From a virus (lineage: Duplodnaviria > Caudoviricetes): a stretch of DNA of 64,000 nt. This document shows positions 3,473 through 51,256 of this stretch, one piece after another. A program made the position numbers and the translations under genes. The notes under the pieces were generated by a model. That model saw nothing but the letters and a program-made list of their open reading frames with translations. It was not told where the DNA came from and ran no database searches. The DNA is taken from IMG/VR virus record IMGVR_UViG_2671180612_000001, positions 32,001 through 96,000 of that record. One strand, 5' to 3'. Numbering within the stretch: the first letter of the stretch is position 1; the number at the start of each line of letters is the position of its first letter.

Positions 3473-3720
3473 GCCATCAGATCGTCGAGGACGACAGCCT
3501 GCAATGGCCGAGTTTCGCAGAGGAGCTCGGCCGCAAGGCGCTCGACGCCATCCAGAACCTCATGCGCAGGCACAAGGATGGCGAGATCACCCGCGACGAG
3601 CTGAAGGTCGCAGCCGGCGCCATCTACGACACGATGTCGGGCCTTGCCCGGCGCGAGGACACGGAGATCCTCTCCGCCGTCTACAACAAGCTCGCCGGCA
3701 CCGACAAAAAGCGTTCGTGA
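3469..3720 (+). CDS. hypothetical protein
   Basis: ATGA overlap with the previous gene. Confidence 0.6.
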   Translation: MSHQIVEDDSLQWPSFAEELGRKALDAIQNLMRRHKDGEITRDELKVAAGAIYDTMSGLARREDTEILSAVYNKLAGTDKKRS

Positions 3721-3775
3721 CAGCTTGCGCATAAGTAAGCGTTCACTTATTAGGACGCATCCGCAGGAGAATCCA

Positions 3776-3991
3776 ATGAGCTACACCGAGCATTTCGGCG
3801 AAGGCCGGCCTGTGCCCATCGACGCCTTCGTGAAGACGCTGCGCATGGACCGCTCCGAGACCGGCTGGGAAGGCGCCTTCATGGTCGACTGGTCCTGGAT
3901 AGGTCACGACACCGACGTCATCGGCTACAAGGTGGCCGGGCCGCTCCGGACGATCTGGCTCTCCCTGCGCCTCAAGTTCGGCGATCGATGA
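3776..3991 (+). CDS. hypothetical protein
   Basis: AGGAG RBS before ATG 3776. Confidence 0.6.
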   Translation: MSYTEHFGEGRPVPIDAFVKTLRMDRSETGWEGAFMVDWSWIGHDTDVIGYKVAGPLRTIWLSLRLKFGDR

Positions 3992-4569
3992 ACGCGCCCT
4001 TCAACAAGGACGCCTGGATCCTCGACGCCATCGCGTGCGGCTACATCAGCCCGAAGCGCGACGGCACGATCATGCGCCGCAAGTCTGCCTCGCGCGACGG
4101 CTCCAACTTGAGCGCCGAGTGGGCGCTGGTGAAGCAGCAGACACACAAGGCGACGGGCCGCGTCTATTTCAACATGACCTGGAAGGGCCTCACCAAGTCC
4201 GTCCTCGTCAACCGTGTGATCGCGCTCCGCTTCCTCCCGAACCCCGACAACCTGCCCCAGGTCAACCACGTCGATGGCGTGAAGGCCCACAACTACCTCT
4301 ACCAGCCGACGCCCGAGCTCGTCGCCAAGTGGGGCAAGTTCCAGCTCGAATGGTCCTCCGGTCAGGACAACGAGAAGCACGCGCACCGCACGGGACTCAA
4401 GACCGGCCGCGGCACCTCAAACGCCAACAACAAACTCTCGGTCGAGCAGGTGCTCAAGATCCGCGAGCTCGGCCCAACGACGCCGATGGATGACCTGATC
4501 GCCTTCTTCGGCGTCGGGCGCACCACGATCGCCAACATCCTTCGCAGACGCACCTGGACGCACGTCTAA
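3988..4569 (+). CDS. HNH homing-endonuclease-like protein with C-terminal HTH
   Basis: RVIALRFLPNPDNLPQVNHVDGVKAHN...LEW...N..HA; KLSVEQVLKIR...FGVGRTTIANI. Confidence 0.8.
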   Translation: MNAPFNKDAWILDAIACGYISPKRDGTIMRRKSASRDGSNLSAEWALVKQQTHKATGRVYFNMTWKGLTKSVLVNRVIALRFLPNPDNLPQVNHVDGVKAHNYLYQPTPELVAKWGKFQLEWSSGQDNEKHAHRTGLKTGRGTSNANNKLSVEQVLKIRELGPTTPMDDLIAFFGVGRTTIANILRRRTWTHV

Positions 4570-6534: not shown

Positions 6535-7422
6535 ATGTCCAACGTGCAGAACAACGTCTCCGGCGTTCCGTCGGCCACTCTCGCCAACATCGATGCGCTG
6601 CTCGATGACCTCGACCTCGACGCCGCGAGCGACGAGACGATCGAGGCGGTGGAGATGACCTCCCAGCTCGCGGACATTGTCGAGGAAGCCAACGAGGAGC
6701 CGGAGATCCTCGAGGGCGAGATCACGGAGCCGGAGACCGTCGAGGCGTCCGAGCAGGAAGCGATCGAGGCGAGCAGCGACGTCCTCGACGAGCTGGAGCT
6801 CACCGCGTCGCCGGCCGACGAGGACATTTCCGACGACCTCCTCGATGCGGTCGAGGCGCAGGAGACGCGCGACGAAGCCTATGCGGCCCAGACGGGCGGC
6901 GAGGTCGGCGACGTCGGCGAGGCTCCGGCCGCGGAAGCCAAGAAGACCTCGAAGATCCGCTCGGGCGAGAAGAACGCTTCGACGCCGCGCACGAACAAGG
7001 ACATGGGCGCCCTGCCCCTCGAAATGTTCCTGCTCACCAACGGCCAGCCGGCCGGCGACCTCGAGGCGACCAAGGCGGCGTTCATGAGCGCGATGCCGGC
7101 GACCAAGAAGGTGATCGAGAAGATCGAGAACGTCATGTGCGCCATCGGCGCCGAGAAGCTCCCGAGCATCTACGTCCAGAAGGCGTTCGCGGCGCTCGAC
7201 GCCAAGGAGACCGTCACGTCGTCCGATCTCGTCGGCGTCTTCAAGGCGGACTACTCGGAAGGCACGAGCCGCAGTCAGGCCGGGCAGATGATGGCCCTGT
7301 TCTCGTTCCTCAAGATCGCTGACCGCGACGGCAAGAACCTGAAGATCCGCAAGGACTCGACGCTCGCCGACCGGCTGCGCTCGATCATCGCCAACACCCA
7401 GGCGGCACCGGCGGGCGCGTAA
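6535..7422 (+). CDS. acidic N-terminus plus C-terminal winged-helix-like domain (paralogue family A)
   Basis: AGGAG RBS, ATG 6535; YSEGTSRSQAGQMMALFSFLKI motif shared with 28241 and 31096. Confidence 0.7.
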   Translation: MSNVQNNVSGVPSATLANIDALLDDLDLDAASDETIEAVEMTSQLADIVEEANEEPEILEGEITEPETVEASEQEAIEASSDVLDELELTASPADEDISDDLLDAVEAQETRDEAYAAQTGGEVGDVGEAPAAEAKKTSKIRSGEKNASTPRTNKDMGALPLEMFLLTNGQPAGDLEATKAAFMSAMPATKKVIEKIENVMCAIGAEKLPSIYVQKAFAALDAKETVTSSDLVGVFKADYSEGTSRSQAGQMMALFSFLKIADRDGKNLKIRKDSTLADRLRSIIANTQAAPAGA

Positions 7423-9455: not shown

Positions 9456-10004
9456 ATGACGAACGACACGAACGCGAACGCCGCCGAGACCGAGTTCGAG
9501 GTCACGGTCGCGGCCGACTACCGGCTCTTCGCGACGACGAAGGTCAAGGCGCCGAGCAAGGAAGCAGCCCTTGAGATTCTCAAGCGCCAGGCCGCGGCGA
9601 AGGTGAATTTCATCGCGGCCGACATGCCCGACTGGCGCTTCGGCGACGGCGAGCTGATCGGCGGGATCACGCTCGTCGCGATGGATCACCAGGAGGAGAC
9701 CGTCCTCGAAGACGTGGAGCTCCTGGACGAGGACGCCGGCCGGGCGAGCTTCGAGCAGCTTCAGAGCATGGTGGACACGATCGCCGGCCTGAAGTCCTCG
9801 CACGACCTCATCCGCTACCCGCTGACCGATGACGAGCCGGCCGAGCTCGCCATCATCGCCGAGCAGCACGAGCACGACACCGGCGACGGCCTCGATCTCC
9901 TCGACACGCTGATCGTCGAGGCGCGCAAGTTCTCGATCGTCCGGCCGGATGGCTACGGCGGTCCTGCGGACTTCGAGGAGCCCGAGGCCGAAACCACGAG
10001 CTGA
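9456..10004 (+). CDS. acidic hypothetical protein
   Basis: AGGAG RBS after operator and promoter. Confidence 0.7.
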   Translation: MTNDTNANAAETEFEVTVAADYRLFATTKVKAPSKEAALEILKRQAAAKVNFIAADMPDWRFGDGELIGGITLVAMDHQEETVLEDVELLDEDAGRASFEQLQSMVDTIAGLKSSHDLIRYPLTDDEPAELAIIAEQHEHDTGDGLDLLDTLIVEARKFSIVRPDGYGGPADFEEPEAETTS

Positions 10005-10053
10005 CAGTTCGAAATCCATCAATCCGGAAATCTCGAAATCTGGAAATCGCGAA

Positions 10054-11610
10054 ATGAACGCCATTGTCCCGCGCGCGACGATCGAGGAGATCGTCGGCCA
10101 CCGTAACCGAGCGGTCGCGCTCTACACCGACGCCTACGAGCAGGCGGTGCTCGCCGACGATCTCGTCAAGAAGGCGCGCGAGGCGTGGTCCGCGGCGGCT
10201 CCCTCGCGCACTGCCTATCACGGCCAGCACGAAGAGGTTGCCGCCTTCAACGCGCTCGTCTCCATCCCGGACATGAGCCAATACGTCCGCACGGCGACCA
10301 GGCTGATCGACGCCGGCATCTGGGCGTCCATCATCGAGCGCACGGACCTCGAGCGCCTCATGGACAAGGAGGCCAAGGACAAGTTGCGCGAGCAGATGCG
10401 CTACGTCCCGGAGCGGGTCAGCCATCGCACCGGCGAGATCATCAACCAGGACGAGATCGACAAGGGCCTGCCGCCCGTCACCGTCGAGAACGTCGCGGCG
10501 ACCCTCGAGCACTTCATGCTGGACGCCGAGACGATCTGGCGCCGGGGCATCGCCAACGCCTTCGCCAAGCTCGACCGGCGCTTCCGCTCGCACGACGGCT
10601 GGAAGATCGGCTCGCGCGTGATCCTGACCCGCTGCTTCAACGATTGGGGCTCCTGGAGCTCCTATTCCAACGAGCGCGAGACCCTGATCGACATCGAGCG
10701 GATCTTCACGATCATGGACGAGGGCGTCACCAAGGCGACCTATGCGACGTCCATCGGGCAGATCGACCAGGAGCGCAAAGGCGTCCACGCGCCGGCGCAG
10801 ACCGAGGTCGACACGACCTACTTCAAGATCCGCATCTTCAAGAACGGGAACGCGCACCTCTGGATGAAGCGCGACGACCTAGTCGAGAAGGTGAACAAGC
10901 TGCTCGGCGAGTATTATGGCGACGCGATCGGCGACCACGAGAACGTGCCGACGGACGAGGACGTCCTCAACAACCCGAAGACCTCGCTCGCCAAGAATAT
11001 GGGCTTCTTCCCGACGCCCGTCGCGGTCGGCGAGCGCGCGATCGGCAACGCCAAGCTCTACGCCAACAAGGACGGCCCGCCGCTGCGCATCCTCGAGCCG
11101 TCGGCAGGCGAGGGGAACATCGCCAAGCTCCTGGCCCGGCCGCTGACGCTGGAGTCCAAGTGGGAGTGGGACGAGAAGGCGCGCGAGCGTGTCGAGATCG
11201 TGCTGGCGTCGCAAAAGCCCATCGTCCATGTCGTCGAGCTCCATCCCGGCCGGGCGAACGAGCTGAAAGGGCAGGGGCTCTACGAGAAGGTCGTCCAGAA
11301 CGACTTCCTCCTGGTGCAGCCGCACCCGTCCGCGCTCTACGACCGGATCGTCATGAACCCGCCGTTCGACCGGGATCGCGACATCGATCACGTCTACCAC
11401 GCGCTCAAGTTCCTCAAGGAGGACGGGATCCTCGTCTCGGTCATGTCGGCCGGCGTCGAGTTCCGGACCACGAAGAAGGCGATCGCGTTCCGGGAGCTCG
11501 TCGAGAAGCGGGGAGGGTGGTTCGAGGATCTGCCCGACCGCTCATTCGCCGAGAGCGGGACCAACATCAACACGGTGCTTTGCATCATCGGTCGCAAGAC
11601 CCGTTGGTAG
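10054..11610 (+). CDS. DUF4942-like domain fused to an N6-adenine DNA methyltransferase domain
   Basis: YFKIRIFKNGNAHLW; GFFPTP; ILEPSAGEG (SAM-binding motif I); IVMNPPF (motif IV); FAESGTNINT. Confidence 0.85.
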   Translation: MNAIVPRATIEEIVGHRNRAVALYTDAYEQAVLADDLVKKAREAWSAAAPSRTAYHGQHEEVAAFNALVSIPDMSQYVRTATRLIDAGIWASIIERTDLERLMDKEAKDKLREQMRYVPERVSHRTGEIINQDEIDKGLPPVTVENVAATLEHFMLDAETIWRRGIANAFAKLDRRFRSHDGWKIGSRVILTRCFNDWGSWSSYSNERETLIDIERIFTIMDEGVTKATYATSIGQIDQERKGVHAPAQTEVDTTYFKIRIFKNGNAHLWMKRDDLVEKVNKLLGEYYGDAIGDHENVPTDEDVLNNPKTSLAKNMGFFPTPVAVGERAIGNAKLYANKDGPPLRILEPSAGEGNIAKLLARPLTLESKWEWDEKARERVEIVLASQKPIVHVVELHPGRANELKGQGLYEKVVQNDFLLVQPHPSALYDRIVMNPPFDRDRDIDHVYHALKFLKEDGILVSVMSAGVEFRTTKKAIAFRELVEKRGGWFEDLPDRSFAESGTNINTVLCIIGRKTRW

Positions 11611-11731
11611 ACGGCGCATCCCGATTTCGCGATTTCCAATTTTCCGGATTTCGCGAAATCGTGACCGAAAGTAAGCGCTTGCTTTACGCAGGCGAATCCA
11701 TCATCCACCCCGATCGTAAGGAGACCCGCCC

Positions 11732-16275: not shown

Positions 16276-16333
16276 CCGATTTCGCTTGCCTCACATAGTA
16301 AGTAAACGCTTACTCACATCGAAAGGAACCGCC

Positions 16334-20796: not shown

Positions 20797-21147
20797 TTGA
20801 CCCAGACGACTTCGAACGAGCTCCGCTACGCCCGCAAGCACGCCGTCCTCAAGGCGCTGCGCGAGCATGGGTTAGACACCGACGACGGCTCCAAGAACGA
20901 CGACATCGCCAACGTCGTGGTCGATGCGCTCTTCCCGTCGGCCGGTCCCATCACGGGCGCCGAATACACGATCCAGGCCGGCGACACGCTGCGCGGGATC
21001 GCGGCACGCCTGCCGGCCGGCATCGACTGGACCTGGCTCTTCAAGCGCAACCGCGAGGTGCTCACGAAAGCCGCGAAGGAGCGCGGCTTCCGGGAGGCGG
21101 ACTGGAACAAGATCTGGCCCGGCACGACGATCCGCGTCACTGCCTGA
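20797..21147 (+). CDS. LysM-domain protein
   Basis: YTIQAGDTLRGIAARL...W..L...N...KIWPGTTIRV. Confidence 0.8.
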   Translation: MTQTTSNELRYARKHAVLKALREHGLDTDDGSKNDDIANVVVDALFPSAGPITGAEYTIQAGDTLRGIAARLPAGIDWTWLFKRNREVLTKAAKERGFREADWNKIWPGTTIRVTA

Positions 21148-21319
21148 CCAGGCGGATCGAGGCGCGCCGCTCCTGGCGCACCAGATAGGCTTCGGTCATC
21201 TTCATGGCGTCCTCGTAGAACTCCAGCTTGTCGACCGCCTCGCGCATGAGTGCGGCCGTCTCGGGCGAGGCATTGTGGGTGGCATCCTTCAGACGGTCGA
21301 TCAGTTCCGGCCGGGCCAT
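21137..21319 (-). CDS. small hypothetical protein
   Basis: AAGGAG RBS on the - strand; MARPELIDRLK... Confidence 0.5.
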   Translation of the reverse strand: MARPELIDRLKDATHNASPETAALMREAVDKLEFYEDAMKMTEAYLVRQERRASIRLVRQ

Positions 21320-21330
21320 TCTTCTCTCCT

Positions 21331-21645
21331 TCAGTATCGCCGGACCATGCCTGGTCTGGGCTTCCATTGCGCCAGTGCCTCGCGCGGGAGGATGTCGAGG
21401 ATGGCGTAGCGAACGTATCGGGAGAGCTTGCCGCAGGTGGTGCAGCGCCACCGGAGATCCTCGATCTCGGCGCCGCCCTGGATGTAGCCCATGAAGTCGT
21501 AGCAGCGGTAGATCACCTCTTTTCCGCAGCCGCGACACACGATCCGGATGCCGAGGTTCTTCCGTAGCCCCTCGTCGAAGCTTCTGACCCTCTGCACCAC
21601 TGCGAATCTCTCCGTTCCGTTCGTAGGAGAACATACCCAGAACAA
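21331..21645 (-). CDS. Zn-ribbon protein (start uncertain)
   Basis: CRGCG...LRWRCTTCG. Confidence 0.55.
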   Translation of the reverse strand: MFWVCSPTNGTERFAVVQRVRSFDEGLRKNLGIRIVCRGCGKEVIYRCYDFMGYIQGGAEIEDLRWRCTTCGKLSRYVRYAILDILPREALAQWKPRPGMVRRY

Positions 21646-23346: not shown

Positions 23347-24732
23347 TCAGGCGGCAATCAGCGCCATGTTGAGGACGTCGATCGTGCCGCCGATCGTCCT
23401 GCCGTTCAGCGCCCGCGCGCCGAGAATGATGCGGGGCGTTGCCGCCGTCAGCACGAAGGCCGGGGTCAGCATCAGGCCCGGCCCCACGCTCGCCGGCAGG
23501 TTGCCGGACGGGTTGTCGTTCGCCGAGCGGTCCGCCGCGTGGGCGTCGATGTAGCTCATATCCGCGACGCCGCCCGAATAGACGGACGTATTCGGGTTGA
23601 TGCTCGGGCTGATCGCCTCGACGTTCTGGACGCCCGACCAGCCGTCGAACTCCACTGCGAGGCGCACCCGGTCGCCCACCGAGCGGCCGGAGAGGTTCAT
23701 CAGGAGGAGTGCGAACTCGGCGTTCGACATCATCGTCCCGCCAAGCACGATGCGCTGGACCGGACGCCCGGTGTTCGGTCCCGTCACCTTCGAATAGGCG
23801 CGCGTGTGGCCTGTGTCCGCACCGTGGCCGCCGATCCATCCGGACGCGACCGTGCCGCTGCCTCCCGTGCCTGGCGTCCCGCCGCTCGAATCCAGCGCAG
23901 GGTTCGAACTTCGACTGCCGCTCGGATTGTAGACTGCATCGAAGCTGTCGGTGTTCGTCATAGCGGTGAGGCCAGCCGAGATTGGGAAGCGAGCCTGGAA
24001 CACCGGGAGAAGACGAAGAGCGCGCTGATACGCGCCAAGGCCCGTTGTGTGCAGAGGCGCGGCCGCGACACCGCCCGCCCGGCTTGTCACCATACCATCG
24101 AGAGCGCGCCCATCGCCGGAAGCAGGGTTCGCATAGCCCGGCTCCATATCGACCACGCAGACGCCGGGCTTGCCTCGGTAGATCTCGCGCATAGCTCGAC
24201 GGACGTGAAGACGGGCACGGTTCATGTTGGCGTTCGGAAAGACGCTGCCGCTGCTGTCACCGCCAGCCGAGGGGGTCTCCAGGATCAGAAACCGTCCTGC
24301 GGCGCGGCAGAGCTGATAGGCAGTTTCGATCGCCCCAAGTTCCTCGGATACGACGTTCGGATTGTTAGCGAGGAAGCCATTGATCGAGGACGGCATAACG
24401 ATCGTATCGGCGTCGTCTTTTGCCAGAATGCCACGAAGGCGTGCAACGATCTCGGGCGTCTTCTGTCCGACGATGCCATAGTTGCCGGTGCCGTCGAAAT
24501 CGAAGGACTGGTGCGTGAGGTAGCGCAACCAGTTGAGCTCCCCGACTACAAGATAGCGATTGCCGCTCCCTCCCGCCGCACGGTTCCAAACGCCGCTCCC
24601 GGACGAGAACGTGTGCCGGAACATGAAGCTGTCTCCGACAACAATCACTCGTCGGTTGCGGGCGGCGTCCAGCGCGAGTGAAGAGACGCCGCTACCGGAA
24701 TTGCCGCCGATGAAAAGACCAGTGCCGATCAT
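23347..24732 (-). CDS. SGNH/GDSL esterase-like protein with C-terminal beta domain
   Basis: VVGDSF (block I), GIVGQKT (block II), SING (block III), PLHTTGLGA (block V-like). Confidence 0.7.
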   Translation of the reverse strand: MIGTGLFIGGNSGSGVSSLALDAARNRRVIVVGDSFMFRHTFSSGSGVWNRAAGGSGNRYLVVGELNWLRYLTHQSFDFDGTGNYGIVGQKTPEIVARLRGILAKDDADTIVMPSSINGFLANNPNVVSEELGAIETAYQLCRAAGRFLILETPSAGGDSSGSVFPNANMNRARLHVRRAMREIYRGKPGVCVVDMEPGYANPASGDGRALDGMVTSRAGGVAAAPLHTTGLGAYQRALRLLPVFQARFPISAGLTAMTNTDSFDAVYNPSGSRSSNPALDSSGGTPGTGGSGTVASGWIGGHGADTGHTRAYSKVTGPNTGRPVQRIVLGGTMMSNAEFALLLMNLSGRSVGDRVRLAVEFDGWSGVQNVEAISPSINPNTSVYSGGVADMSYIDAHAADRSANDNPSGNLPASVGPGLMLTPAFVLTAATPRIILGARALNGRTIGGTIDVLNMALIAA

Positions 24733-24733
24733 G

Positions 24734-26371
24734 TCAGCGGTTCCACGCCGGCCGCGGGCTCGCCACCTTGCGGAAGACGAGCGGCGAGACCTTGATCTGG
24801 AACGCCTTGGACGCCTCGCGGCGCCAGGACATCGCGAGGTTGAAGAGGTCCATGTAGGAGCTCACGCCCGTCGCAGCGTCGAGACCCTCCATCTTGTGCG
24901 GCAGGGTGCGCAGCAGGAGCTTCTCACCGTTGCGGAACGGGATCGGCACGCTGTTCTCCGCGCCCCGACGGTTGACGCCGCCCGTGACCGGCATCGTCAG
25001 CCCGCCGCGGTAGCGGAGCTGCAAGGACGCGCCGACGAAAATCGTCTCCTCGGACAGAAGCTCGACCTCGCAGAGCGCTTCCATCCAGTCGCCGGCGACG
25101 ATCCCGAGGGCCGAGTAGCTCGGCATGACCGGCGTGAGCGACAGCGAGTTGACGCCAGCAGCCGGAGCGGCCGGGGTGATGGTGAAGACCTGCTTCTCGG
25201 CAACGCCGGCCTCGATCACCTCCTTCGAGGCGACGATCGCTTCGGTCTGGCCGGCACCGCGGTTCACCGTGACGCTCGTTGCGACGCTGCCGGTGATCCC
25301 GCCGTTCTTGGTGCCGTTGGTGCCGAGGAACCCGCCCGTCGCGAGCAGATTGCCGGCGCGCGAACGATCCACGAAATCGCCTGCCGTCACCATGGAGCGC
25401 AGCACGTCGAGGAGCATCCCCGGTTCGGAGTTGCGGATCCAGTGACCGACCGACGTCATGTGGATGCCGTCCTCGAGGATCGGCTGGCCGGACGCGATCG
25501 CGTCCCGGATGAGCTTGCGATCATCGACGACCTTCACGCCCTCGCGAGAGCCGAGCGTCGCGCACCAGGCGCCGAAGTTTTCGAGCGTCACATGGCGCGG
25601 ATCGCCGACCTTCCAGTCGGTGCGCGGGGTCGGCATGAGGACCACGGCCCAGATGCCGGCATAGCGGAGCATGGTGAGGATGCGATCGAGCCGGAGCTTC
25701 AAGGTCTCGAGCGTGATCGGGGTCTTGCCGTCGGCCTGGCGCCGGCTGTTCACGTCGTTGGTGCCGATGTCCACGACCACGATGTCGGGCCGCATGTCGA
25801 TCGTGCGCTTCAGGCGCTCGTAGCCGCCGTTGAGGTCGTCACCGCCCAGACCTGCCTGCGATCCGGCGAAGCCCTTGGCGTCGCCCGCGCGGTTCTGCGC
25901 ATAGTCCTTATCGAACCAGGAGTTGACGTTGAAGCGCCCGTCCATGGACTGAAGAAGGCCCATGTCGCCGAACGCCGCGCCGGTGTTGATGTCGATGCGG
26001 TTGTGGAGCGCCGGCGGGACCGCGTTGCCGAAAGCGTAGCCCGAGCGCGCGATGAAGCTGTGGCCGAGACCCATGACCTTGGCGCCGGTCTTCAGTGGAA
26101 GAGCGGGAAGAGTGCGCGGGGTCGCGAAAGGAGCGCTGGTCGGCAGAACCTCTGCGGTGAGAGACGCGCCGTCGGGATCGGCGGGAAGGGTAAGCTTCCA
26201 GAAGCCGAACTCGTCGGCATGAATCGTTCCGGCGAGCGAGGCGCCGGCCTTGACCGTCACCGGCACGCCAGCACGCGCCCGGCCCGAGACGACGAACGTC
26301 TTGACGTCATAGGCGTCGATCGTGGGAACCGTATCAGCGGGGATCTTCGAGTAGGGACCGTATCCGGACAT
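24734..26371 (-). CDS. Ig-like N-terminus plus SGNH/GDSL esterase-like protein
   Basis: GLGHSF, AGLGGD, DIGTND, DGIH catalytic blocks; VSGRA..G..VTV...ADEFGFWKL Ig-like segment. Confidence 0.8.
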   Translation of the reverse strand: MSGYGPYSKIPADTVPTIDAYDVKTFVVSGRARAGVPVTVKAGASLAGTIHADEFGFWKLTLPADPDGASLTAEVLPTSAPFATPRTLPALPLKTGAKVMGLGHSFIARSGYAFGNAVPPALHNRIDINTGAAFGDMGLLQSMDGRFNVNSWFDKDYAQNRAGDAKGFAGSQAGLGGDDLNGGYERLKRTIDMRPDIVVVDIGTNDVNSRRQADGKTPITLETLKLRLDRILTMLRYAGIWAVVLMPTPRTDWKVGDPRHVTLENFGAWCATLGSREGVKVVDDRKLIRDAIASGQPILEDGIHMTSVGHWIRNSEPGMLLDVLRSMVTAGDFVDRSRAGNLLATGGFLGTNGTKNGGITGSVATSVTVNRGAGQTEAIVASKEVIEAGVAEKQVFTITPAAPAAGVNSLSLTPVMPSYSALGIVAGDWMEALCEVELLSEETIFVGASLQLRYRGGLTMPVTGGVNRRGAENSVPIPFRNGEKLLLRTLPHKMEGLDAATGVSSYMDLFNLAMSWRREASKAFQIKVSPLVFRKVASPRPAWNR

Positions 26372-26374
26372 CGA

Positions 26375-26653
26375 TCAGCCCTTCGTCACGATTGCGGAGC
26401 CCGGCAGACGCTTGGCGCGGGCATAGACGGTCTCGGTGGTGAGAGAGCCGAACGAGAAGGAGCGATGCGCGCCGGCGCCGACCGTATGGGCCTCGTCGTT
26501 CTGCGGATCGGGAAGCTCGCTATCGAGGCGAACGAGGATGTCGGTGCCCTCGCTCTCGACCAGGAGCTCCGAGACGCCAGAGGCAATCTCGGTCCACTCG
26601 TCGCGGGTGAGGTTGAAACGCTTGGTCGGCTGGAAAGCCATGATGAACTCCAT
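26375..26653 (-). CDS. small beta-rich phage protein (start probably 26641)
   Basis: First gene after an operator-promoter; GGAG before MAFQPTK. Confidence 0.65.
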   Translation of the reverse strand: MEFIMAFQPTKRFNLTRDEWTEIASGVSELLVESEGTDILVRLDSELPDPQNDEAHTVGAGAHRSFSFGSLTTETVYARAKRLPGSAIVTKG

Positions 26654-26764
26654 TGGGAACAGGAGCCACCATCATAGCAAGTAAGCGCTTACTTAACCAA
26701 GGGGAACCATATGGAAAGAGGGAAGAAGGCAGGCTGCGCGGGCACCAGAATCAGGAGAGACCCG

Positions 26765-28240: not shown

Positions 28241-29110
28241 ATGTCGAAGCGCACCGCGAAGAACACCGCCGCCCAGATCGAGAACGTCGTCCTCGAGGGC
28301 GAGATCATCGCTCCGGTCGTCGAGCAGATCACCGAGACCAACGAGCCCACGGAAGCCGAGCTCGACGCCATCGAGACCGCCGAGGTCCAGTCCGAAGCCT
28401 ACCAGGCCCAGGCGTCCGAGATCGACGAGGTCAACCCGGACCAGGCACCGGCAGGCGACGAGCCCGAGCTCCTCACCGACGAGCCGGAGCAGAAGACGCT
28501 CGCCCAGATGATCGAGGGCATCGAGCGCGACCACGCCGTCGCCATGCAGCACCACATCGCCGCGGAGATCGACGACCGCATGGACTACGAGAGCGACAAG
28601 GGGAACGAGACGATCCAGCGCTCCTTGAAGAGCTCCCGCGCGAAGATGACCACCGACCTCCTCGCCGCCTACGCCTTTGCCGCGACGAGCGTCGACCCGT
28701 CGGTCTTCAACGTCGGACGCGCCTCGACGAACCGCTACAACGTCTACGCCATCGACAAGGTCGCGGACCTGGCGCGCTCGCTCGCCTCGGGGCACTTCAT
28801 GAAGAACGCCATCAACCGCGCTGTGTGCCGCTCGCTCTTCACGTTCCGCCACTCCGGCGAGCGCTTCACGATGGAGATCGCCAAGGCAGCGTGCTCCGAC
28901 AAGATCCGCGTGTCGCCGGCGATCTCGCGCCATCTGATCCGTCACACGGTCTCGGCGTCGACCGCGCCCACCCAGGCGTCGTCCACCATGCAGGCCCTCG
29001 AGACGCTCGGCATCGTCAAGAACGTCGGCACCGCCCGCGGCGCCGTCTACGAGCTGACCGACACGGCGCAGGCGCGCGCCCTCGAGGAGCTCTGCACGAA
29101 GGCAGCGTAA
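28241..29110 (+). CDS. acidic N-terminus plus winged-helix-like domain (paralogue family A)
   Basis: NVYAIDKV, VSASTAPTQASSTMQALETLGIV; followed by a terminator. Confidence 0.75.
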   Translation: MSKRTAKNTAAQIENVVLEGEIIAPVVEQITETNEPTEAELDAIETAEVQSEAYQAQASEIDEVNPDQAPAGDEPELLTDEPEQKTLAQMIEGIERDHAVAMQHHIAAEIDDRMDYESDKGNETIQRSLKSSRAKMTTDLLAAYAFAATSVDPSVFNVGRASTNRYNVYAIDKVADLARSLASGHFMKNAINRAVCRSLFTFRHSGERFTMEIAKAACSDKIRVSPAISRHLIRHTVSASTAPTQASSTMQALETLGIVKNVGTARGAVYELTDTAQARALEELCTKAA

Positions 29111-29862: not shown

Positions 29863-30144
29863 GCGCCTGTCACAACCTGCAGGCGCTCAACGCGGGCCAG
29901 GCGAGTCACCCAACAGCTCGACCTGGTCCGCACCCGTCCAGGCCCGTCCAGGTCCAGTAAGGCCAGGCACGGGTCTTTTCGCGTCAGGCTGCGCCCCGCG
30001 GGCCTCCTCGGCGGCTCCCGGCCGAGCTCTTCCCCACCAGACACCTCTCGACCGCGCTCAACGTGCCGTCGCTGCACGCTTATAGCCCGTAAGTCGCTGA
30101 TTTATATTCATAATTGTCAGCAACACGAAACGAGAGAGTTTCAC

Positions 30145-30483
30145 ATGACCCGCACTGCTTCGCTCAACGCTTCCGCCTCGATCGTCGCTCGCTTCGCCGA
30201 TGCCATCGAGCTTGCCGATGCGTTCAAGGTCGATCATGTGCCCGCCAACATCGACGCCGACCTGTTCAAGCGCTCGTCCGAGGGAACGCTGCGCTCCGCT
30301 GGCGACCGCTTCCGGCTCGCGATCCAGCATTCCGGACTGTCGCCCGACGACATGCCTGCTATTCGTGACCAGGGGATGCAGCTCGTCGAGGAGCGCAAGC
30401 GCATTCGCCGGGAAGAAGCCGCTCACCGTGCCGCCAAGCGTGAAGCCGCGCTCGCGAGCCGGGAAGAGCGCGAATACGCTTAG
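30145..30483 (+). CDS. hypothetical helical protein
   Basis: After promoter and TCAGCAACAC leader. Confidence 0.65.
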   Translation: MTRTASLNASASIVARFADAIELADAFKVDHVPANIDADLFKRSSEGTLRSAGDRFRLAIQHSGLSPDDMPAIRDQGMQLVEERKRIRREEAAHRAAKREAALASREEREYA

Positions 30484-30813
30484 ATCCAGCCTAGCGGAGA
30501 GCGTCGCGTCACAGCGGCGCTTTCTTGTGGGCTGGGCGAGCGGGACGGGTCGGGGCGGAGACGGATCAAGGGGGCGGGGAGGGGACGCGCCTGCCTCGAG
30601 GAATTTTGGAACGGCTGGGCTAAATGGGACTCGGGGAAACGACTGCGGGGCGTCGTTTCCCCTTGTTGCCGCCGGCCCACCTCCGACTGCCCCGTGGGTG
30701 CCCGCGGCGAATACCGTGCCAACGGAAATTAGGAACGGGGAGGAAAGGACGTGGGCGCCCAAGATCCGGACGGGGATGGGCCTATGCGGCGCCCCGAGGG
30801 CGCCCGCGGGGCG

Positions 30814-30943
30814 GGGGCGCGCGTAGGACGCCCCGCGACGGGGAGCAAATCACAAAACCGGGGCAACGCGTAGCTGACTACGGGTCAGTCGGGGCGCGCG
30901 ACTAGGACGACGCGCGTCGGGGAGCAAGTCACGAAAGCGGGGC
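30814..30943 (+). repeat. two imperfect direct repeats of about 52 bp
   Basis: GGGGCGCGCG..TAGGACG...CGGGGAGCAA(A/G)TCAC(A/G)AAA(C/G)CGGGGC at 30814-30864 and 30891-30943. Confidence 0.8.
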
Positions 30944-31095
30944 TCACAGGGGCGTGACGCAATTCATTTTCGTTCGTCGCGACTCATTCCTTTTCGTTTT
31001 TGCGTAAGTAAGCGCTTGCTTATTCATGTGCGTCGTATAAATTCATTTGTGTCGCACACAGACGACATCAGCAACACACAAAGAAAGACACTCAC

Positions 31096-31692
31096 ATGAC
31101 GCAGATCGCTTCTAACGACTTCGCTGCTAAGCTCGCTGCATACGCTGACGCTGCTAAGCTCAACATCGTGACGCGCAAAGACAAAGTGTCTGACGCGAAC
31201 GCTAAGCACTTCGATCGCTCGATCGCGATGCTTGCGAATGAGACGATCGCACAAGCTCTTATCGCTGCTGACGTCGATGCGTCGCGCTACACGTCGCAAG
31301 TCTATGCGTTCAAGAAAGAGAACGCTATTCTTGACTATCTCTTCAATAATAAGACGATGCAGAACTATATCGCAGAGATTTTTGTCAGCGCGTTTCGTAA
31401 GCATCACGTCAAGAACGCAGCGTTGACGAAGAGCGAAGCGAAGCTTGCGCTTAACAAGTCTGCGAAGCTTAGCGAAAGCGAAGCAACGTATATCGTGCAA
31501 CAGTCGAAAATCATCGATGAAAGCACTGTGAACGCGCAGCATAAGACGACGCTAGACGCTTTCGTCAATCTGCGTATGTTCTCGCAAGTCTCGACGTTCG
31601 AAACGCGCGACGCTTACGCAATCAATCTCGAAAGCGACATGACGCAGCGCATGATTGCGCGTCTTAACATCGCTGATATGTTCGCTGCGTAA
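31096..31692 (+). CDS. GG/CC-free gene; Gly/Pro/Trp-free winged-helix-like protein (paralogue family A)
   Basis: 198 aa; QVYAFKK and IDESTVNAQHKTTLDAFVNLRMF align with the 28241 protein; own promoter and 3' hairpin. Confidence 0.8.
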   Translation: MTQIASNDFAAKLAAYADAAKLNIVTRKDKVSDANAKHFDRSIAMLANETIAQALIAADVDASRYTSQVYAFKKENAILDYLFNNKTMQNYIAEIFVSAFRKHHVKNAALTKSEAKLALNKSAKLSESEATYIVQQSKIIDESTVNAQHKTTLDAFVNLRMFSQVSTFETRDAYAINLESDMTQRMIARLNIADMFAA

Positions 31693-31708
31693 ATCGACAC
31701 AGACGCTC

Positions 31709-31735
31709 GCTGACGCGCTTCGATAGCGCGTCAGC
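31709..31735 (+). terminator. hairpin after the GG-free gene
   Basis: GCTGACGCGCT-TCGAT-AGCGCGTCAGC (11-bp stem, itself GG/CC-free); no U-tract. Confidence 0.5.
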
Positions 31736-32049
31736 TACTCGCGAAGCTCTCACGCTCAAACGCTCGCTCTTGAGCTTCTATGACGATCCCAGAGCGTGAG
31801 ACACCCCAGCCACAGCGCGCGACACTCGCCCAATCCCTCCTCGCGCATCGCGTGACATCGGGGACACAGCCCCAGGGGACGACGTGTGCTGGGTGGACAC
31901 ACTCTGTTGCACGGGGACCATGTGGCGGGAAGGACACGAGGTCCTAGAAGCCCCGCCACAGGTCGAAGGGGATGCCTTTTGAGGGCGAGACACTCCCCGG
32001 CCTGGACCCTTAATCCTACATCGACTTAGAGTAGATCGGAGGGGCTGCG

Positions 32050-32691
32050 ATGGATGGTTTGGCATCGCTGTTTAACACGCTGAAGACGCCGTCGTTTGCG
32101 GCTGGCTTGGTCTTCCTCATCGGAGGCATATTGGTTCGGTTCGGGATCTACCTCGGCGAGATCCAAGAGTCGGCATTCGATGGAAGCATCCGCACCTACG
32201 CCGGCATATCGATAGCCCTCGGAGCGACGATCTTCGCCGTTGCGCTCCTGCTCCGAGCCGCTCACTGGTTGCGAAAAGTGCCCGCGATCAGGGCAGCACG
32301 AGCGAAGAACATACGGGAGCGTGAGATCGTCCTGGAGGCCTCGCGCGCACTCAGCATGGACGCCACGACGATCCTCTACGGATTGCTGCGAAACGACAGT
32401 AGGACATCGCGCGGCTTCAGCGCGCCGGCGATGAACGAGCTTCAGCAGCTCGACATCATTCGCCCTGCCGGGGACTACAAATACAAGATTAACGAGTCCG
32501 TCATGATCGAGATCACCCCTCAAGTCTGGGATCAACGGGATCGGATCAAGCTGGAGCTCGTAGAAGCGCTCAAGGATTATACGGGTAATCCGCTCTTCGA
32601 TGACGAGGCATACGAGATCCTCGTCGCTCAGCAGATCGCTGCCAGAGATCGGCAAGGCAGAGGTCGTCAGCATGACTGGATGGGGTTCTGA
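32050..32691 (+). CDS. membrane-anchored moron protein (2 N-terminal TM segments); possible superinfection exclusion or defence
   Basis: Lower GC; two hydrophobic helices then a soluble domain. Confidence 0.6.
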   Translation: MDGLASLFNTLKTPSFAAGLVFLIGGILVRFGIYLGEIQESAFDGSIRTYAGISIALGATIFAVALLLRAAHWLRKVPAIRAARAKNIREREIVLEASRALSMDATTILYGLLRNDSRTSRGFSAPAMNELQQLDIIRPAGDYKYKINESVMIEITPQVWDQRDRIKLELVEALKDYTGNPLFDDEAYEILVAQQIAARDRQGRGRQHDWMGF

Positions 32692-35762: not shown

Positions 35763-35843
35763 CGGGGCTCCGTTGCAAAGTAAGTGCTTACTTACTAGCG
35801 CAGCCCGCGAGCAGCGTCTATCGAGGAGACGCGCTCTGGAGGG

Positions 35844-42312: not shown

Positions 42313-42387
42313 TTGCCTCCGATCTACATTAGAATCTAACTCTAAGAGATAGATATAATTTCTAATGTAGGTGAGAGGCAATTAGCT
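42307..42387. repeat. imperfect inverted repeat of about 80 bp with an AT-rich loop, upstream of terS
   Basis: AGCTAATTGCCTC/GAGGCAATTAGCT and CTACATTAGAA/TTCTAATGTAG arms. Confidence 0.75.
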
Positions 42388-42408: not shown

Positions 42409-42437
42409 TTGCATAATAAGTAAGCACTTACTAAAAT
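42409..42437 (+). promoter_or_regulatory. sigma70-type promoter with operator in the spacer
   Basis: TTGCAT-N17-TAAAAT; TAAGTAAGCACTTACTAA at 42417-42434. Confidence 0.7.
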
Positions 42438-48098: not shown

Positions 48099-48359
48099 AT
48101 GAGCCGCATTATCGAGATCTACGGCCGCAGCAATTGCGGCTTCTGCGCACGAGCCAAGGAGCTCGTCGCATCGGAGGGCCTGGCCTTCCGCTACCATGAC
48201 GTCGCCGACCCCGCCTTGAAGGCCGAGATGGACCGGCGCGCGCCAGGCGCCCGAACCGTGCCGCAGATCTTCGCGGCCGGCGAATACATCGGCGGGTTCG
48301 ATGATCTCGAAGTCCTGCACCTGACCGGCACCCTCCCGATCACCGACAAGGAAATCTGA
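48099..48359 (+). CDS. grxC: glutaredoxin (GrxC-like)
   Basis: CGFC active site, TVPQIF, IGGFDDL. Confidence 0.9.
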   Translation: MSRIIEIYGRSNCGFCARAKELVASEGLAFRYHDVADPALKAEMDRRAPGARTVPQIFAAGEYIGGFDDLEVLHLTGTLPITDKEI

Positions 48360-48361
48360 TC

Positions 48362-49186
48362 ATGAAGCCTATGCTTCTGCGCCTGAAGAGCGGCGCTTTC
48401 ACCGGCTACAACGGCCATCTCGGCAACGCCTTCTTCCAGGACGGGACGTCCGTGGACGTCGTGGCGCCGGCCGTCGCCAACCAGATCGCCGGCATCATGG
48501 AAGCCGTGCATGTGGACGAGGACGGCGTCGAGCACCCGGCCGGCCGTCAGCACCAGGTCATCAACGGCGTCGCGATCCGCGTGGCCGAGACCGCACCGCT
48601 CGCACGCCAGACCGACGCCGAACGCGAAGCCGAAGAGCGCGCCGAGCGCCTGCGCACGGCCAAGGCCGATAGCGTCACGCTGCGCACCAAGGACGAGCTC
48701 GACGCCCTCGCCGACAAGGGCGGCATCAAGGCCGTGCGCGTCGTCGCCGAGGAGTGGGGTCTCAAGGGACGGTCGATCCCTGCCCTGATCGAGTCCATCC
48801 TCACCGCGCAGGCCGAGTTCGTCGAGGCGCGCAACGCTTCCGGCGCGACGCAGATCGAGGCCCCGGTCGATCCGGTCAAGCCGGAAGGCGAGGGCGCCGA
48901 GGAGACGTCGGTGGATGACGACGACCTCGCGGCCAAGATCGCGGCGGCAGCGGCCCGCGGCATCGCCGACGCCATCAACGCCGAGACGGCCGACACCGAC
49001 GAGACCGGCACGGGCGGCGAGGGCGGCACCGAGGCCACCGGCGAGGGCCAGGAAGGCACGCAGGAGAGCGAGGACGCTTCGGGCGAGGGCGAGAGCACCG
49101 ACGAGACCGAAGACGCTCCCACGGGCTCTGGTGAGGGCGAGGGCACCGGCGAAGGTCAGGGCGAGAGCGACGAGGGTCGCGAGTAA
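48362..49186 (+). CDS. virion-module protein with long acidic Gly-rich tail
   Basis: FTGYNGHLG...F.DG.S; ADKGGIKAVR. Confidence 0.7.
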   Translation: MKPMLLRLKSGAFTGYNGHLGNAFFQDGTSVDVVAPAVANQIAGIMEAVHVDEDGVEHPAGRQHQVINGVAIRVAETAPLARQTDAEREAEERAERLRTAKADSVTLRTKDELDALADKGGIKAVRVVAEEWGLKGRSIPALIESILTAQAEFVEARNASGATQIEAPVDPVKPEGEGAEETSVDDDDLAAKIAAAAARGIADAINAETADTDETGTGGEGGTEATGEGQEGTQESEDASGEGESTDETEDAPTGSGEGEGTGEGQGESDEGRE

Positions 49187-51181: not shown

Positions 51182-51256
51182 AACACCTTGCCACGCCGCG
51201 TTACGGCGCGGTATGATAAGTAAACGCTTACTCATTCTGCCAACGAGAGGAAATCC

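What the first reader, a model, noticed from the sequence alone, without database searches (positions are those of the whole stretch)
30990..31788. A whole transcription unit with no GG or CC dinucleotide in a roughly 68% GC phage
Seen: reading base by base, 30990-31788 (799 nt) has no GG and no CC, so no GpG on either strand. The span covers operator, promoter (TTGCTT-N16-TAAATT), leader, a GG-less RBS (AAGAAAGA), the 198-aa ORF 31096-31692 and its 3' hairpin. The protein consequently has no Gly, Pro or Trp, and the genome's favourite codons (GCC, ACC, GGC) are replaced by GCT/GCG/ACG. At about 50% local GC a rough expectation is on the order of 100 GG+CC. GATC, AGCT, CGCG and TCGA are retained, so this is not generic restriction-site avoidance. 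Inference: GG is chemically modified or targeted in incoming DNA, and this gene must be readable or immune first, e.g. an immediate-early regulator transcribed by host RNAP from otherwise hypermodified virion DNA. I do not know of a described system like this.
Basis: partly seen in the sequence, partly recalled or inferred. Interest (0 to 1): 0.97.

Follow-up and report, generated by a model that had tools for sequence, protein, structure and literature searches.

The report
GG/CC-free regulator gene in phage-plasmids
A family of soil phage-plasmids keeps one small regulator gene, from promoter to terminator, written without the two-letter steps GG and CC, so its protein has no glycine, proline or tryptophan; some unidentified factor must read that short word, mainly on one strand.

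Summary
Window 30990-31788 (799 nt, 49.8% GC) has no GG or CC. The next longest such run in the whole 111,560-bp, 64.3% GC genome is 82 nt. No codon-preserving permutation reached zero (0 of 20,000). The trait is selected, not local chance. The gene belongs to a family of 18 protein clusters at 23-45% identity, and 15 of the 18 lack Gly, Pro and Trp. Of 20 DNA loci, 13 have no GG or CC in the coding sequence. Unrelated extra ORFs inside the unit obey the same rule. The protein is a winged-helix paralog of a normally coded gene 2 kb upstream. New here: the rule is strand-asymmetric, with 4 GG against 46 CC violations on the sense strand. One lineage has lost the CC rule but keeps GG. Some neighbouring genes avoid only sense GG. 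This favours a transcription- or RNA-level reader of GG, equivalent to CC on the template strand, over symmetric double-strand site avoidance or a generic virion hypermodification. This scan has reported the same trait on other DNA, in at least 34 genomes. Its other agents placed it at the end of the packaged DNA; I could not test that here. My paper searches found no description of it.

The parts
30990..31788 (.). GG/CC-free run (799 nt), the transcription unit from promoter to terminator-like hairpins
   Evidence: 0 GG and 0 CC; the next longest run in the genome is 82 nt.
30952..31860 (+). Sense-strand GG-free run (909 nt), wider than the CC-free run
30989..31009 (+). Promoter-like element CC-N13-GTAAGT of the phage's early promoter pattern; the run starts at the second C
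   Evidence: the same CC-N13/14-(G/T)ATAAG or GCTATA layout, with a GG/CC-free leader, lies upstream of at least 20 early operons. Read by eye from alignments, not modelled statistically.
31008..31019 (.). Operator-like half-palindrome GTAAGCGCTTGC, one mismatch from GTAAGCGCTTAC
   Evidence: 14 matches at 2 or fewer mismatches in the window against 0.97 expected; 32 in the genome, 26 in pLM21S1.
31081..31088 (+). GG-less purine-rich ribosome-binding stretch AAGAAAGA, 7 nt before the ATG
   Evidence: Pairing with the CUUUCU 3' tail of alphaproteobacterial 16S rRNA is recalled, not tested.
31096..31692 (+). CDS of a 198-aa Gly/Pro/Trp-free protein: helical N-terminal half plus a C-terminal winged helix
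   Evidence: pLDDT 91.3; Z 8-9 to winged-helix domains over residues 85-198; family.
31709..31735 (+). 3' hairpin built only of alternating G/C steps
   Evidence: read from the sequence; no T-run follows it.
31754..31781 (+). Second hairpin GCTCAA...TTGAGC with a TTCTAT tail; the run ends 7 nt later
   Evidence: read from the sequence; not called by the terminator scan.
28241..29110 (+). Normally coded paralog (289 aa; 10 Gly, 9 Pro) whose C-terminal 175 aa or so match the GG/CC-free protein
   Evidence: hhalign probability 98.4%, E 4.5e-15, 173 columns; a profile hit in 6 of 6 genomes.
30145..30483 (+). Conserved 112-aa neighbour gene with a partial deficit of sense GG
   Evidence: 14 GG against 20.2 by permutation here; 2 against 7.7 in the pLM21S1 orthologue.
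30484..30988 (+). G-rich repeat block (18 GGGG) that abuts the unit in this genome and in relatives

Best explanation
The unit is a 'stealth' cassette for an early winged-helix regulator. Selection has removed every target of a factor that reads the bare dinucleotide in a strand-specific way. The hard rule is no GG in the mRNA, which is the same as no CC on the template strand. The softer rule is no CC in the mRNA. I think the factor acts on the transcript or on the template strand during transcription. Examples are an endoribonuclease or RNA-modifying toxin that needs GG, or a nick or lesion at 5'-CC-3' that stops RNA polymerase only when it lies on the template strand. It would act in a phase of infection or plasmid life when other messages are being lost and this regulator must still be made. 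Shown: the purge, its extent (promoter to terminator), its conservation, its independence of the protein encoded, its strand asymmetry, the GG-less ribosome-binding stretch, and the existence of a normally coded paralog. Inferred: that a reader exists, that it acts on RNA or on the template strand, and when it acts.
For: (1) The purge is not chance. (2) It is conserved across deep divergence. The family has 18 representative clusters at 23-45% identity, and 15 of 18 lack G, P and W. Of 20 DNA loci, 13 have 0 GG+CC in the CDS and 18 encode G/P/W-free proteins. In each of the 6 complete genomes examined, the longest GG/CC-free run (or single-strand GG- or CC-free run) lies at this locus. (3) It is a property of the unit, not of the protein. 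Unrelated extra ORFs inside the run also lack G, P and W: 101 aa in pLM21S1, 61 aa in L020 and 64 aa in RHph_Y2_11. In the Shinella plasmid, co-directional ORFs just beyond the run have normal GG/CC. (4) Strand asymmetry. Violations in the 20 CDSs total 4 GG against 46 CC on the sense strand. L012 has 0 GG and 10 CC with an unchanged G/P/W-free protein. L010 has 2 GG and 28 CC and keeps a 644-nt sense-GG-free run. In ordinary genes of this genome, GG makes up 37.8% of the synonymously reachable GG/CC; a pool of 2 GG against 41 CC gives binomial p = 4.8e-7. (5) Some neighbouring genes purge sense GG only. G005 21108-21404 has 0 GG against 7.4 by permutation (0 of 20,000) with 31 CC. pLM21S1 65851-66189 has 2 against 7.7 (P = 5e-5). 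(6) The boundaries fit a transcript: the run starts at the conserved CC of the promoter pattern and ends just after hairpins. (7) The RBS has no GG, whereas the leaders of the other early operons end at a GGAG. (8) The purge does not reduce RNA structure. MFE per nt is -0.343, against -0.314 predicted for this GC content and -0.283 for mononucleotide shuffles.
Against: No RNase, RNA-modifying toxin, nickase or DNA-modifying enzyme was identified. An RNA-level GG reader does not by itself explain the CC purge. In pLM21S1 and G002 the purge continues 170-200 nt past an intrinsic terminator, up to a G-rich repeat block. The unit is inverted in this genome relative to pLM21S1 yet still abuts that block; this suits a DNA-position rule at least as well. 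One viable isolated phage, RHEph10, carries one sense GG (a Gly codon), and three related records carry one CC, so a single site is not lethal. All genes in these genomes show a mild deficit of GG and CC against codon permutation (observed/permuted about 0.85-0.9), so the neighbour-gene signal rests on the two extreme cases. The asymmetry null was taken from this genome, not from the genomes that carry the violations. No expression data exist.
Confidence: 0.4

Rival explanations
1. Position on the DNA, not transcription. The unit would be the first stretch of packaged DNA to enter the cell, like the first-step-transfer DNA of T5. It must lack the sites of a nuclease that destroys the 60-65% GC host DNA while only this stretch is inside. 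[quoted passage not shown]
For: Both GG and CC are purged, including non-coding DNA. In pLM21S1 and G002 the purge extends 170-200 nt beyond an intrinsic terminator, up to a G-rich repeat block. The unit's orientation flips between clades while it stays next to that block. Relatives are siphophages with fixed ends and direct terminal repeats of 3.6-3.9 kb (PMC12509600, whole text read). Davison's preprint proposes site-free first-step-transfer DNA for T5 (10.1101/866236, passages read). Other agents of this scan placed the cassette at the DNA end in other genomes (not checked by me).
Against: The strand asymmetry argues against a symmetric double-strand reader: L010 holds 28 CC (28 GG on the other strand) yet still avoids sense GG, and L012 holds 10 CC and 0 GG. 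No nuclease is encoded in the unit. I found no evidence for a physical end near the unit. The end repeats of G001 and G005 are 127 and 95 nt, which I read as assembly overlaps. G002 shows no similarity between its two ends, which look like coding sequence by eye. G000's ends lie in the repC-HTH region. In the Shinella plasmid the run is followed at once by normal co-directional ORFs.
Confidence: 0.22
2. One reading: virion DNA is chemically hypermodified at GG/CC, and this gene must be readable by host RNA polymerase from modified incoming DNA.
For: The purge covers promoter, leader, gene and terminator. A bulky mark on the template strand would block RNA polymerase more than one on the other strand, which could give the observed asymmetry (inference). 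Weak hints of unusual nucleotide metabolism: a ThyX-like protein below the Pfam cut-off, a YfbR-like 5'-deoxynucleotidase and a dNMP-kinase-like P-loop protein.
Against: No modification enzyme is annotated in pLM21S1 or found among the scanned proteins. The DUF4942 protein is absent from 5 of 5 complete relatives. B1VFA and V1VFA-S were sequenced with ordinary Illumina libraries, with no note of difficulty (PMC12509600). All other early operons share the promoter pattern yet are full of GG/CC.
Confidence: 0.1
3. A translation or RNA-folding adaptation: removing GG deletes all Shine-Dalgarno-like words and removing CC deletes all anti-Shine-Dalgarno-like words, or the purge keeps the message unstructured.
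For: The RBS lacks GG. The leaders of other early operons are also GG/CC-free up to their GGAG.
Against: Such effects are graded and would not demand zero of about 100 expected sites in non-coding DNA, terminator hairpins and every codon junction over 20 loci. The message is not less structured than expected.
Confidence: 0.06
4. Avoidance of a CRISPR PAM (CC/GG) or of many restriction sites at once.
For: A region without GG/CC has no GG-type PAM and none of the many restriction sites that contain GG or CC (established knowledge, recalled).
Against: Cutting anywhere else in the 111-kb genome, which has 17,218 GG/CC positions, would still kill the phage, so protecting one gene gains nothing. PAM and restriction-site recognition are not specific to the transcribed strand.
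Confidence: 0.03

Closest known systems
First-step-transfer (pre-early) DNA of phage T5 and Davison's 'A1 restriction enzyme' hypothesis (bioRxiv 10.1101/866236; passages read)
   Same: The idea that a small early-acting stretch of phage DNA escapes a destructive activity because it lacks that activity's sites. Both are large siphophages with direct terminal repeats (PMC12509600). A repeat-rich untranslated block lies next to the stretch.
   Different: No dinucleotide purge has been reported for T5 in the passages I read. Here the purge is strand-asymmetric. I looked for no A1/A2 homologues. The position relative to the DNA ends is unknown. The element is also a plasmid prophage with RepC and ParA.
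Chlorovirus short-site nucleases such as the nickase Nt.CviPII (/CCD), and virion-packaged endonucleases that degrade host DNA within minutes (review PMC7019647; passages read)
   Same: This shows that a virus can use an enzyme reading a two- to three-base word that contains CC, cutting one strand only, to destroy GC-rich host DNA. A strand-specific nick at CC would reconcile the purge with its asymmetry.
   Different: As I recall (not from the passages read), chloroviruses protect their own DNA by methylation. Here no methyltransferase is conserved, and protection would come from absence of the word. No such nickase has been identified in this family.
Messages that lack the cleavage word of an mRNA interferase (MazF and ACA-less mRNAs), and T4 RegB cutting at GGAG in Shine-Dalgarno sequences (both recalled from memory; no call)
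   Same: Immunity of one message by absence of a short RNA word; for RegB, a GG-containing word and a phage-encoded early RNase.
   Different: The known words are 3-7 nt, not 2. No toxin or RegB-like gene was found here. CC is purged as well.
CpG depletion of vertebrate RNA viruses to escape the CpG-binding protein ZAP (recalled from memory; no call)
   Same: A bare dinucleotide read on RNA as a non-self mark, and evasion by recoding.
   Different: That effect is graded and genome-wide in eukaryotic viruses. Here it is all-or-none and confined to one bacterial-virus operon, to the point of excluding three amino acids.
Winged-helix transcription regulators (MarR, PadR and ArsR types)
   Same: Residues 85-198 of the model align to many winged-helix domains (Z 8.0-9.1, rmsd 2.1-4.3 A, 73-88 residues aligned).
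   Different: No Pfam, PHROGs or NCBIfam family matches. The tool itself says Z under 8-9 may be common. DNA binding is untested.

Membership tests
Winged-helix (MarR/PadR/ArsR-like) DNA-binding regulators | Helix-turn-helix plus beta-hairpin wing fold | tested here: met
   AlphaFold model, pLDDT 91.3. VIA-align Z 8.0-9.1 to AF1382, RosR, Fur, histone H1/H5 and MarR domains over residues 85-198. Foldseek against PDB gave no match at E <= 0.001.
Winged-helix (MarR/PadR/ArsR-like) DNA-binding regulators | Sequence membership of a curated family | tested here: not met
   Pfam best E 0.052, below cut-off; PHROGs best E 0.042; NCBIfam none.
Winged-helix (MarR/PadR/ArsR-like) DNA-binding regulators | Sequence-specific DNA binding, for example to the GTAAGCGCTTAC palindrome | not testable with these tools
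   The palindrome is over-represented, but nothing links it to this protein.
T5-type first-step-transfer / pre-early region | Lies in the terminal repeat at the end of the DNA that enters first | not testable with these tools
   Contig ends were uninformative. No reads of virion DNA were at hand. The paper on B1VFA gives repeat sizes but no coordinates.
T5-type first-step-transfer / pre-early region | Adjacent repeat-rich injection-stop region | tested here: inconclusive
   A G-rich repeat block abuts the unit in this genome, pLM21S1, G001, G002 and G005. It has no demonstrated function and I did not look for DnaA boxes.
T5-type first-step-transfer / pre-early region | Encodes A1/A2-type proteins | not tested
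   I ran no search with T5 A1 or A2. The unit encodes only the winged-helix protein here.
Toxin-word-free mRNA (mRNA-interferase immunity) | The word is avoided on the RNA strand specifically | tested here: inconclusive
   Sense GG is the harder rule: 4 GG against 46 CC violations over 20 loci (p = 4.8e-7). But CC is also purged in 13 of 20 loci.
Toxin-word-free mRNA (mRNA-interferase immunity) | A cognate endoribonuclease in the phage or host | tested here: inconclusive
   None was recognised in the pLM21S1 annotation or in the proteins scanned. Many small ORFs were not scanned, and the host is unknown.
Phage DNA hypermodification systems | Genes for a base-modifying or base-exchanging enzyme conserved with the trait | tested here: inconclusive
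   None is annotated in the 159 features of pLM21S1. The DUF4942 protein is present only in this genome. The ThyX-like hit is below cut-off. Not all ORFs were scanned.
Phage DNA hypermodification systems | Modified bases in virion DNA | not testable with these tools
   Needs LC-MS or long-read signal data.

The most novel reading that the evidence does not exclude
These phage-plasmids, or their hosts, use an enzyme that reads nothing more than a dinucleotide on one strand. It could be a 5'-CC-3' nickase or a GG-specific RNase that wipes out GC-rich host, and most phage, nucleic acid. Self is told from non-self by the complete absence of the word in one regulator cassette, at the cost of banning three amino acids. 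The normally coded paralog 2 kb upstream would then be the peacetime copy of the same DNA-binding module.
Probability: 0.3. Interest if true: 0.95.

Novelty: categorically new. Interest (0 to 1): 0.86.

Why it matters
If a reader of a bare dinucleotide exists, it would be the shortest specific nucleic-acid word known to drive an all-or-none biological decision in bacteria or their viruses. It would also be a new principle of self-protection: absence of the word rather than modification or an inhibitor. The locus shows how far a nucleic-acid constraint can reshape a protein. A winged-helix fold has been rebuilt without Gly, Pro or Trp and kept for long enough to diverge to 23% identity. The GG/CC-free cassette is also an easy computational marker for the gene these phages most need to protect, and so a handle on their earliest regulatory step. 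The trait misleads annotation: the RHEph10 record calls the antisense ORF at this locus.

Tried and rejected
Chance or low GC. Rejected by the genome-wide run lengths and the codon-aware permutations. The unit keeps 50% GC by enriching CG and GC.

Foreign origin from a GG-poor donor. Rejected because the trait is kept in relatives at 23-45% identity and a native paralog exists.

Selection for unstructured RNA. Rejected.

Loss of a phage gene as the cause of the relaxed CC rule. No gene conserved in the four full-constraint genomes is missing from G001 by tblastn at E <= 1e-4. This test cannot see point changes or host factors.

Known RNA families. There were 0 Rfam matches in the window at gathering score, and 0 at E <= 1 in 30000-32200. 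There are no tRNA genes in the window, although relatives carry tRNAs beside the unit.

Expression data. No RNA holder is listed, and the four listed runs hold only 6-8% of the sampled words. I did not lay reads.

Physical DNA ends. The end repeats of G001 and G005 are 127 and 95 nt, which I read as assembly overlaps. G002's first and last 6 kb share no similarity (blastn), and its ends look like coding sequence by eye, which I did not check. No long internal repeats were found in four genomes. The 'DNA tip' reading of other agents is therefore neither supported nor refuted here.

BLASTP of the protein against the upstream paralog alone was weak (E 0.10); the profile comparison settled it. The third 'paralog' noted by the first stage (window 6535-7422) was not hit by the family profile at E <= 1.

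A motif scan with 3 mismatches was mostly noise; only the exact copies are used.

Megablast of 3 kb against the phage collection found nothing.

Tools not used: complex prediction, the protein-atlas search, read laying, and the second structure job. Supplementary files of papers were not opened; those of PMC12509600 or its sequence records may hold the coordinates of the terminal repeats.
Full report
**Observation.** Window 30990-31788 (799 nt) has no GG and no CC, at 49.8% GC. The window is 64.4% GC and the whole record is 111,560 bp at 64.3% GC. The record is a virus record classed as linear and 95% complete. The next longest GG/CC-free runs in the genome are 82, 79, 76 and 70 nt, although GG/CC occupies 17,218 positions. 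From base composition about 100 GG+CC are expected in the run.

A codon-aware null gives the same answer. Permuting the gene's own synonymous codons gives a mean of 20.3 GG+CC; none of 20,000 permutations reached zero and the minimum was 9. Recoding the same protein with the genome's codon usage gives a mean of 58.7, with a minimum of 39 in 5,000. GCC, ACC, TCC and CGG are replaced by GCT/GCG/GCA, ACG, TCG/AGC and CGC/CGT. CG and GC are enriched 1.95- and 1.80-fold. The 198-aa product has no Gly, Pro or Trp.

**What the genome is.** The record is collinear with the Sinorhizobium phage-plasmid pLM21S1, with core proteins at 30-68% identity. pLM21S1 carries RepC, ParA, a sigma factor, DnaE, ribonucleotide reductase, RNA-ligase-family genes, NAD salvage genes, two ParB/Srx proteins with an ABC ATPase, terminase and siphovirus structural genes. 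Here I also found rIIA/rIIB-like, CobT/VWA, gp32-like and YfbR-like proteins, and a weak ThyX-like hit. Isolated relatives B1VFA and V1VFA-S are siphophages with fixed ends and terminal repeats of 3.6-3.9 kb (PMC12509600, whole text). pLM21S1 is described as a plasmid-like prophage related to RHEph10 (PMC5537653, passages).

**Conservation.**
- phmmer against 1.84 billion representatives found 18 clusters at 23-45% identity. Of these, 15 have no Gly, Pro or Trp and the other three have one such residue each. G+P+W make up 12.9% of my crude gene calls here.
- I collected 20 DNA loci: this window; pLM21S1; pRlX6; a Shinella plasmid; phages RHph_X66, B1VFA, RHph_Y2_11 and RHEph10; eleven IMG/VR contigs; and one metagenome contig.
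- In 13 of the 20 loci the CDS has no GG or CC, and 18 of the 20 encode G/P/W-free proteins. The free run touching the CDS is 693-1334 nt in those 13.
- Several loci are close relatives (the B1VFA group; RHph_Y2_11 and RHEph10), so the 20 are not 20 independent lineages.
- In each of six complete genomes the locus holds the genome's longest run: GG/CC-free in four, and free of GG or CC on one strand only in G001 and G004.

**The rule belongs to the unit, not the protein.** In pLM21S1 the run is 1334 nt and holds a second, unrelated G/P/W-free ORF of 101 aa. L020 holds one of 61 aa and RHph_Y2_11 one of 64 aa. In the Shinella plasmid, three co-directional ORFs directly after the run have normal GG/CC. 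In this window the run begins at the second C of a conserved CC. That CC belongs to a promoter pattern, CC-N13/14-(G/T)ATAAG or GCTATA, followed by a GG/CC-free leader that ends at a GGAG. I see this pattern upstream of at least 20 early operons (read by eye). The run ends 7 nt after a second hairpin. The gene's own ribosome-binding stretch, AAGAAAGA, has no GG. Its possible pairing with the CUUUCU tail of 16S rRNA is recalled, not tested.

**The protein.** The AlphaFold model is confident (pLDDT 91.3). Residues 85-198 align to many winged-helix domains (Z 8.0-9.1). Foldseek found no PDB match at E <= 0.001 and two uncharacterised phage proteins in BFVD. No curated family matches.

The protein is a paralog of the C-terminal 175 aa or so of a normally coded gene 2 kb upstream (window 28241-29110; 10 Gly, 9 Pro). 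The profile-profile probability is 98.4% with E 4.5e-15. The family profile finds both copies in 6 of 6 genomes. This confirms an earlier first-stage note. A third proposed paralog (6535-7422) was not found at E <= 1.

**Strand asymmetry.** This is the main new result, and I found it before reading the scan's other reports.
- Where the rule is broken, it is broken by CC on the sense strand: 4 GG against 46 CC over the 20 CDSs.
- L012 has 10 CC and 0 GG, with a protein that is still G/P/W-free; the changes are synonymous or at codon junctions.
- L010 has 28 CC and 2 GG and keeps a 644-nt sense-GG-free run. By its own codon permutation, 11.5 GG are expected and 0 of 20,000 permutations reach 2 or fewer.
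- In ordinary genes of this genome, GG makes up 37.8% of the GG/CC that a G/P/W-free protein could acquire synonymously. A pool of 2 GG against 41 CC has p = 4.8e-7. The null comes from this genome, not from the genomes that carry the violations.
- RHEph10 is the one case of a lone sense GG (a Gly codon) with no CC.
- Some neighbouring genes purge sense GG only. G005 21108-21404 has 0 GG against 7.4 expected, with 31 CC. The pLM21S1 112-aa gene has 2 against 7.7. Its orthologues here and in G001 are weaker, 14 against 20.2 and 10 against 12.5.
- As a control, all genes show a mild deficit (observed/permuted about 0.85-0.9).

**What this means.** A symmetric reader of double-stranded GG/CC cannot explain lineages that tolerate dozens of CC but still exclude GG from the sense strand. 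The harder rule is 'no GG in the RNA', equivalent to 'no CC on the template strand'. That points to a reader acting on the transcript or on the template during transcription.

The purge does not minimise RNA structure. Graded translational effects would not demand zero sites. PAM or restriction avoidance makes no sense for one gene in a genome full of sites. I therefore favour, at 0.4, a strand-specific reader. It could be an RNase or RNA-modifying toxin needing GG, or a nick or lesion at 5'-CC-3' that blocks RNA polymerase only on the template strand.

The nickase form has a viral precedent. Chlorovirus Nt.CviPII cuts /CCD on one strand, and packaged endonucleases degrade host DNA within 5 minutes (PMC7019647, passages). 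It would also account for the softer CC rule, because nicks on both strands make double-strand breaks.

**Against my reading.**
- I identified no such enzyme.
- No conserved gene is missing from the CC-relaxed genome G001.
- In pLM21S1 and G002 the purge runs 170-200 nt past an intrinsic terminator, up to a G-rich repeat block. The unit is inverted here relative to pLM21S1 but still touches that block.
- These points fit a rule of position on the DNA. Other agents of this scan proposed this on other genomes: a cassette at the end of packaged DNA, like T5 first-step-transfer DNA. It also matches Davison's hypothesis that T5 first-step-transfer DNA lacks the sites of the A1 nuclease (10.1101/866236).
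- I could not locate physical ends, so this rival stands at about 0.22.

It has no gene-level support. The only candidate, a DUF4942 protein, is unique to this genome.

**Novelty.** Full-text searches for 'GG dinucleotide' + bacteriophage + avoidance returned 4 papers, none relevant by title and abstract. A search for phage + 'lacks glycine' + dinucleotide returned nothing relevant among the 8 listed. The papers on pLM21S1 and B1VFA that I read do not mention the trait. The scan's own index lists the same trait in at least 34 genomes. It is therefore a family-wide, possibly superfamily-wide phenomenon that appears to be undescribed in print.

Noticed in passing
window, e.g. 26681-26692, 31008-31019, 11671-11682, 16302-16313, 35780-35791, 42420-42431, 51220-51231: The palindrome GTAAGCGCTTAC (extended form AAGTAAGCGCTTACTT) has 14 hits at 2 or fewer mismatches against 0.97 expected in the window. 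There are 32 in the whole genome and 26 in pLM21S1. By eye, most lie 20-50 nt upstream of start codons in both early and late regions. It may be the operator of a master regulator or part of a promoter.
   Followed up: partly
window 528, 3034, 6466, 9398, 12842, 14853, 17647, 27595, 28152, 29559, 30088, 30990 (run starts): Early promoter pattern: a fixed CC, 13-14 nt, then (G/T)ATAAG or GCTATA, then a GG/CC-free leader of 45-82 nt that ends at the GGAG ribosome-binding site. The GG/CC-free unit starts with the same pattern.
   Followed up: partly
window 30484-30988: An untranslated G-rich block (40% G, 18 GGGG) with two copies of GGGGAGCAARTCACRAAASCGGGGC. Relatives have a G-rich block in the same place, and pLM21S1 and G001 each hold two exact copies of a GGAACGGCTTAGG motif. 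There is no Rfam match.
   Followed up: partly
window 42320-42370, and genome 102389-102449 (outside the window): Two copies of an AT-rich (27-31% GC) element of about 55 nt with palindromic arms GATCTACATTAGAA...TTCTAATGTAGATC. One lies just upstream of the terminase region.
   Followed up: no
genome 28280-32457 (window up to 457): A GHKL-ATPase protein (805 aa) followed by a protein matching PHROG 'RIIB lysis inhibitor' (E 4e-122): an rIIA/rIIB-like pair in a temperate phage-plasmid.
   Followed up: no
window 23347-26653, minus strand: An accessory cluster of two GDSL-lipase-like proteins (461 and 545 aa) and a 92-aa ORF, on the opposite strand to its surroundings and absent from pLM21S1.
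   Followed up: no
window 9949-11610: A 553-aa protein with a DUF4942 domain (E 1.5e-43), present only in this genome among the six complete relatives compared.
   Followed up: partly
window 48099-49186: A glutaredoxin gene and a gene matching the one pLM21S1 annotates as Cas4 sit inside the head-morphogenesis module, right after the major capsid gene. The Cas4-like gene is conserved in 5 of 5 complete relatives. It is a candidate virion-associated nuclease; this is speculation.
   Followed up: no
window 3988-4569: A 193-aa gene annotated HNH endonuclease in pLM21S1 is conserved at 54-62% identity in 5 of 5 complete relatives, which is unusually well for a phage HNH. It had no Pfam or NCBIfam hit here.
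   Followed up: no
L052 (RHEph10) 3468-4148: The GenBank record of RHEph10 annotates the antisense ORF (gp148) over the GG/CC-free gene. The odd composition seems to mislead gene callers.
   Followed up: no
whole genomes G000, G005, pLM21S1: All genes show a mild deficit of GG and CC relative to permutation of their own codons (median z -1.4 to -2.6; observed/permuted about 0.85-0.9).
   Followed up: partly
window 32050-32691: The gene just downstream of the unit encodes a 213-aa protein with weak, below-cut-off matches to SieB (superinfection exclusion protein B) and CopD. It is absent from pLM21S1.
   Followed up: no
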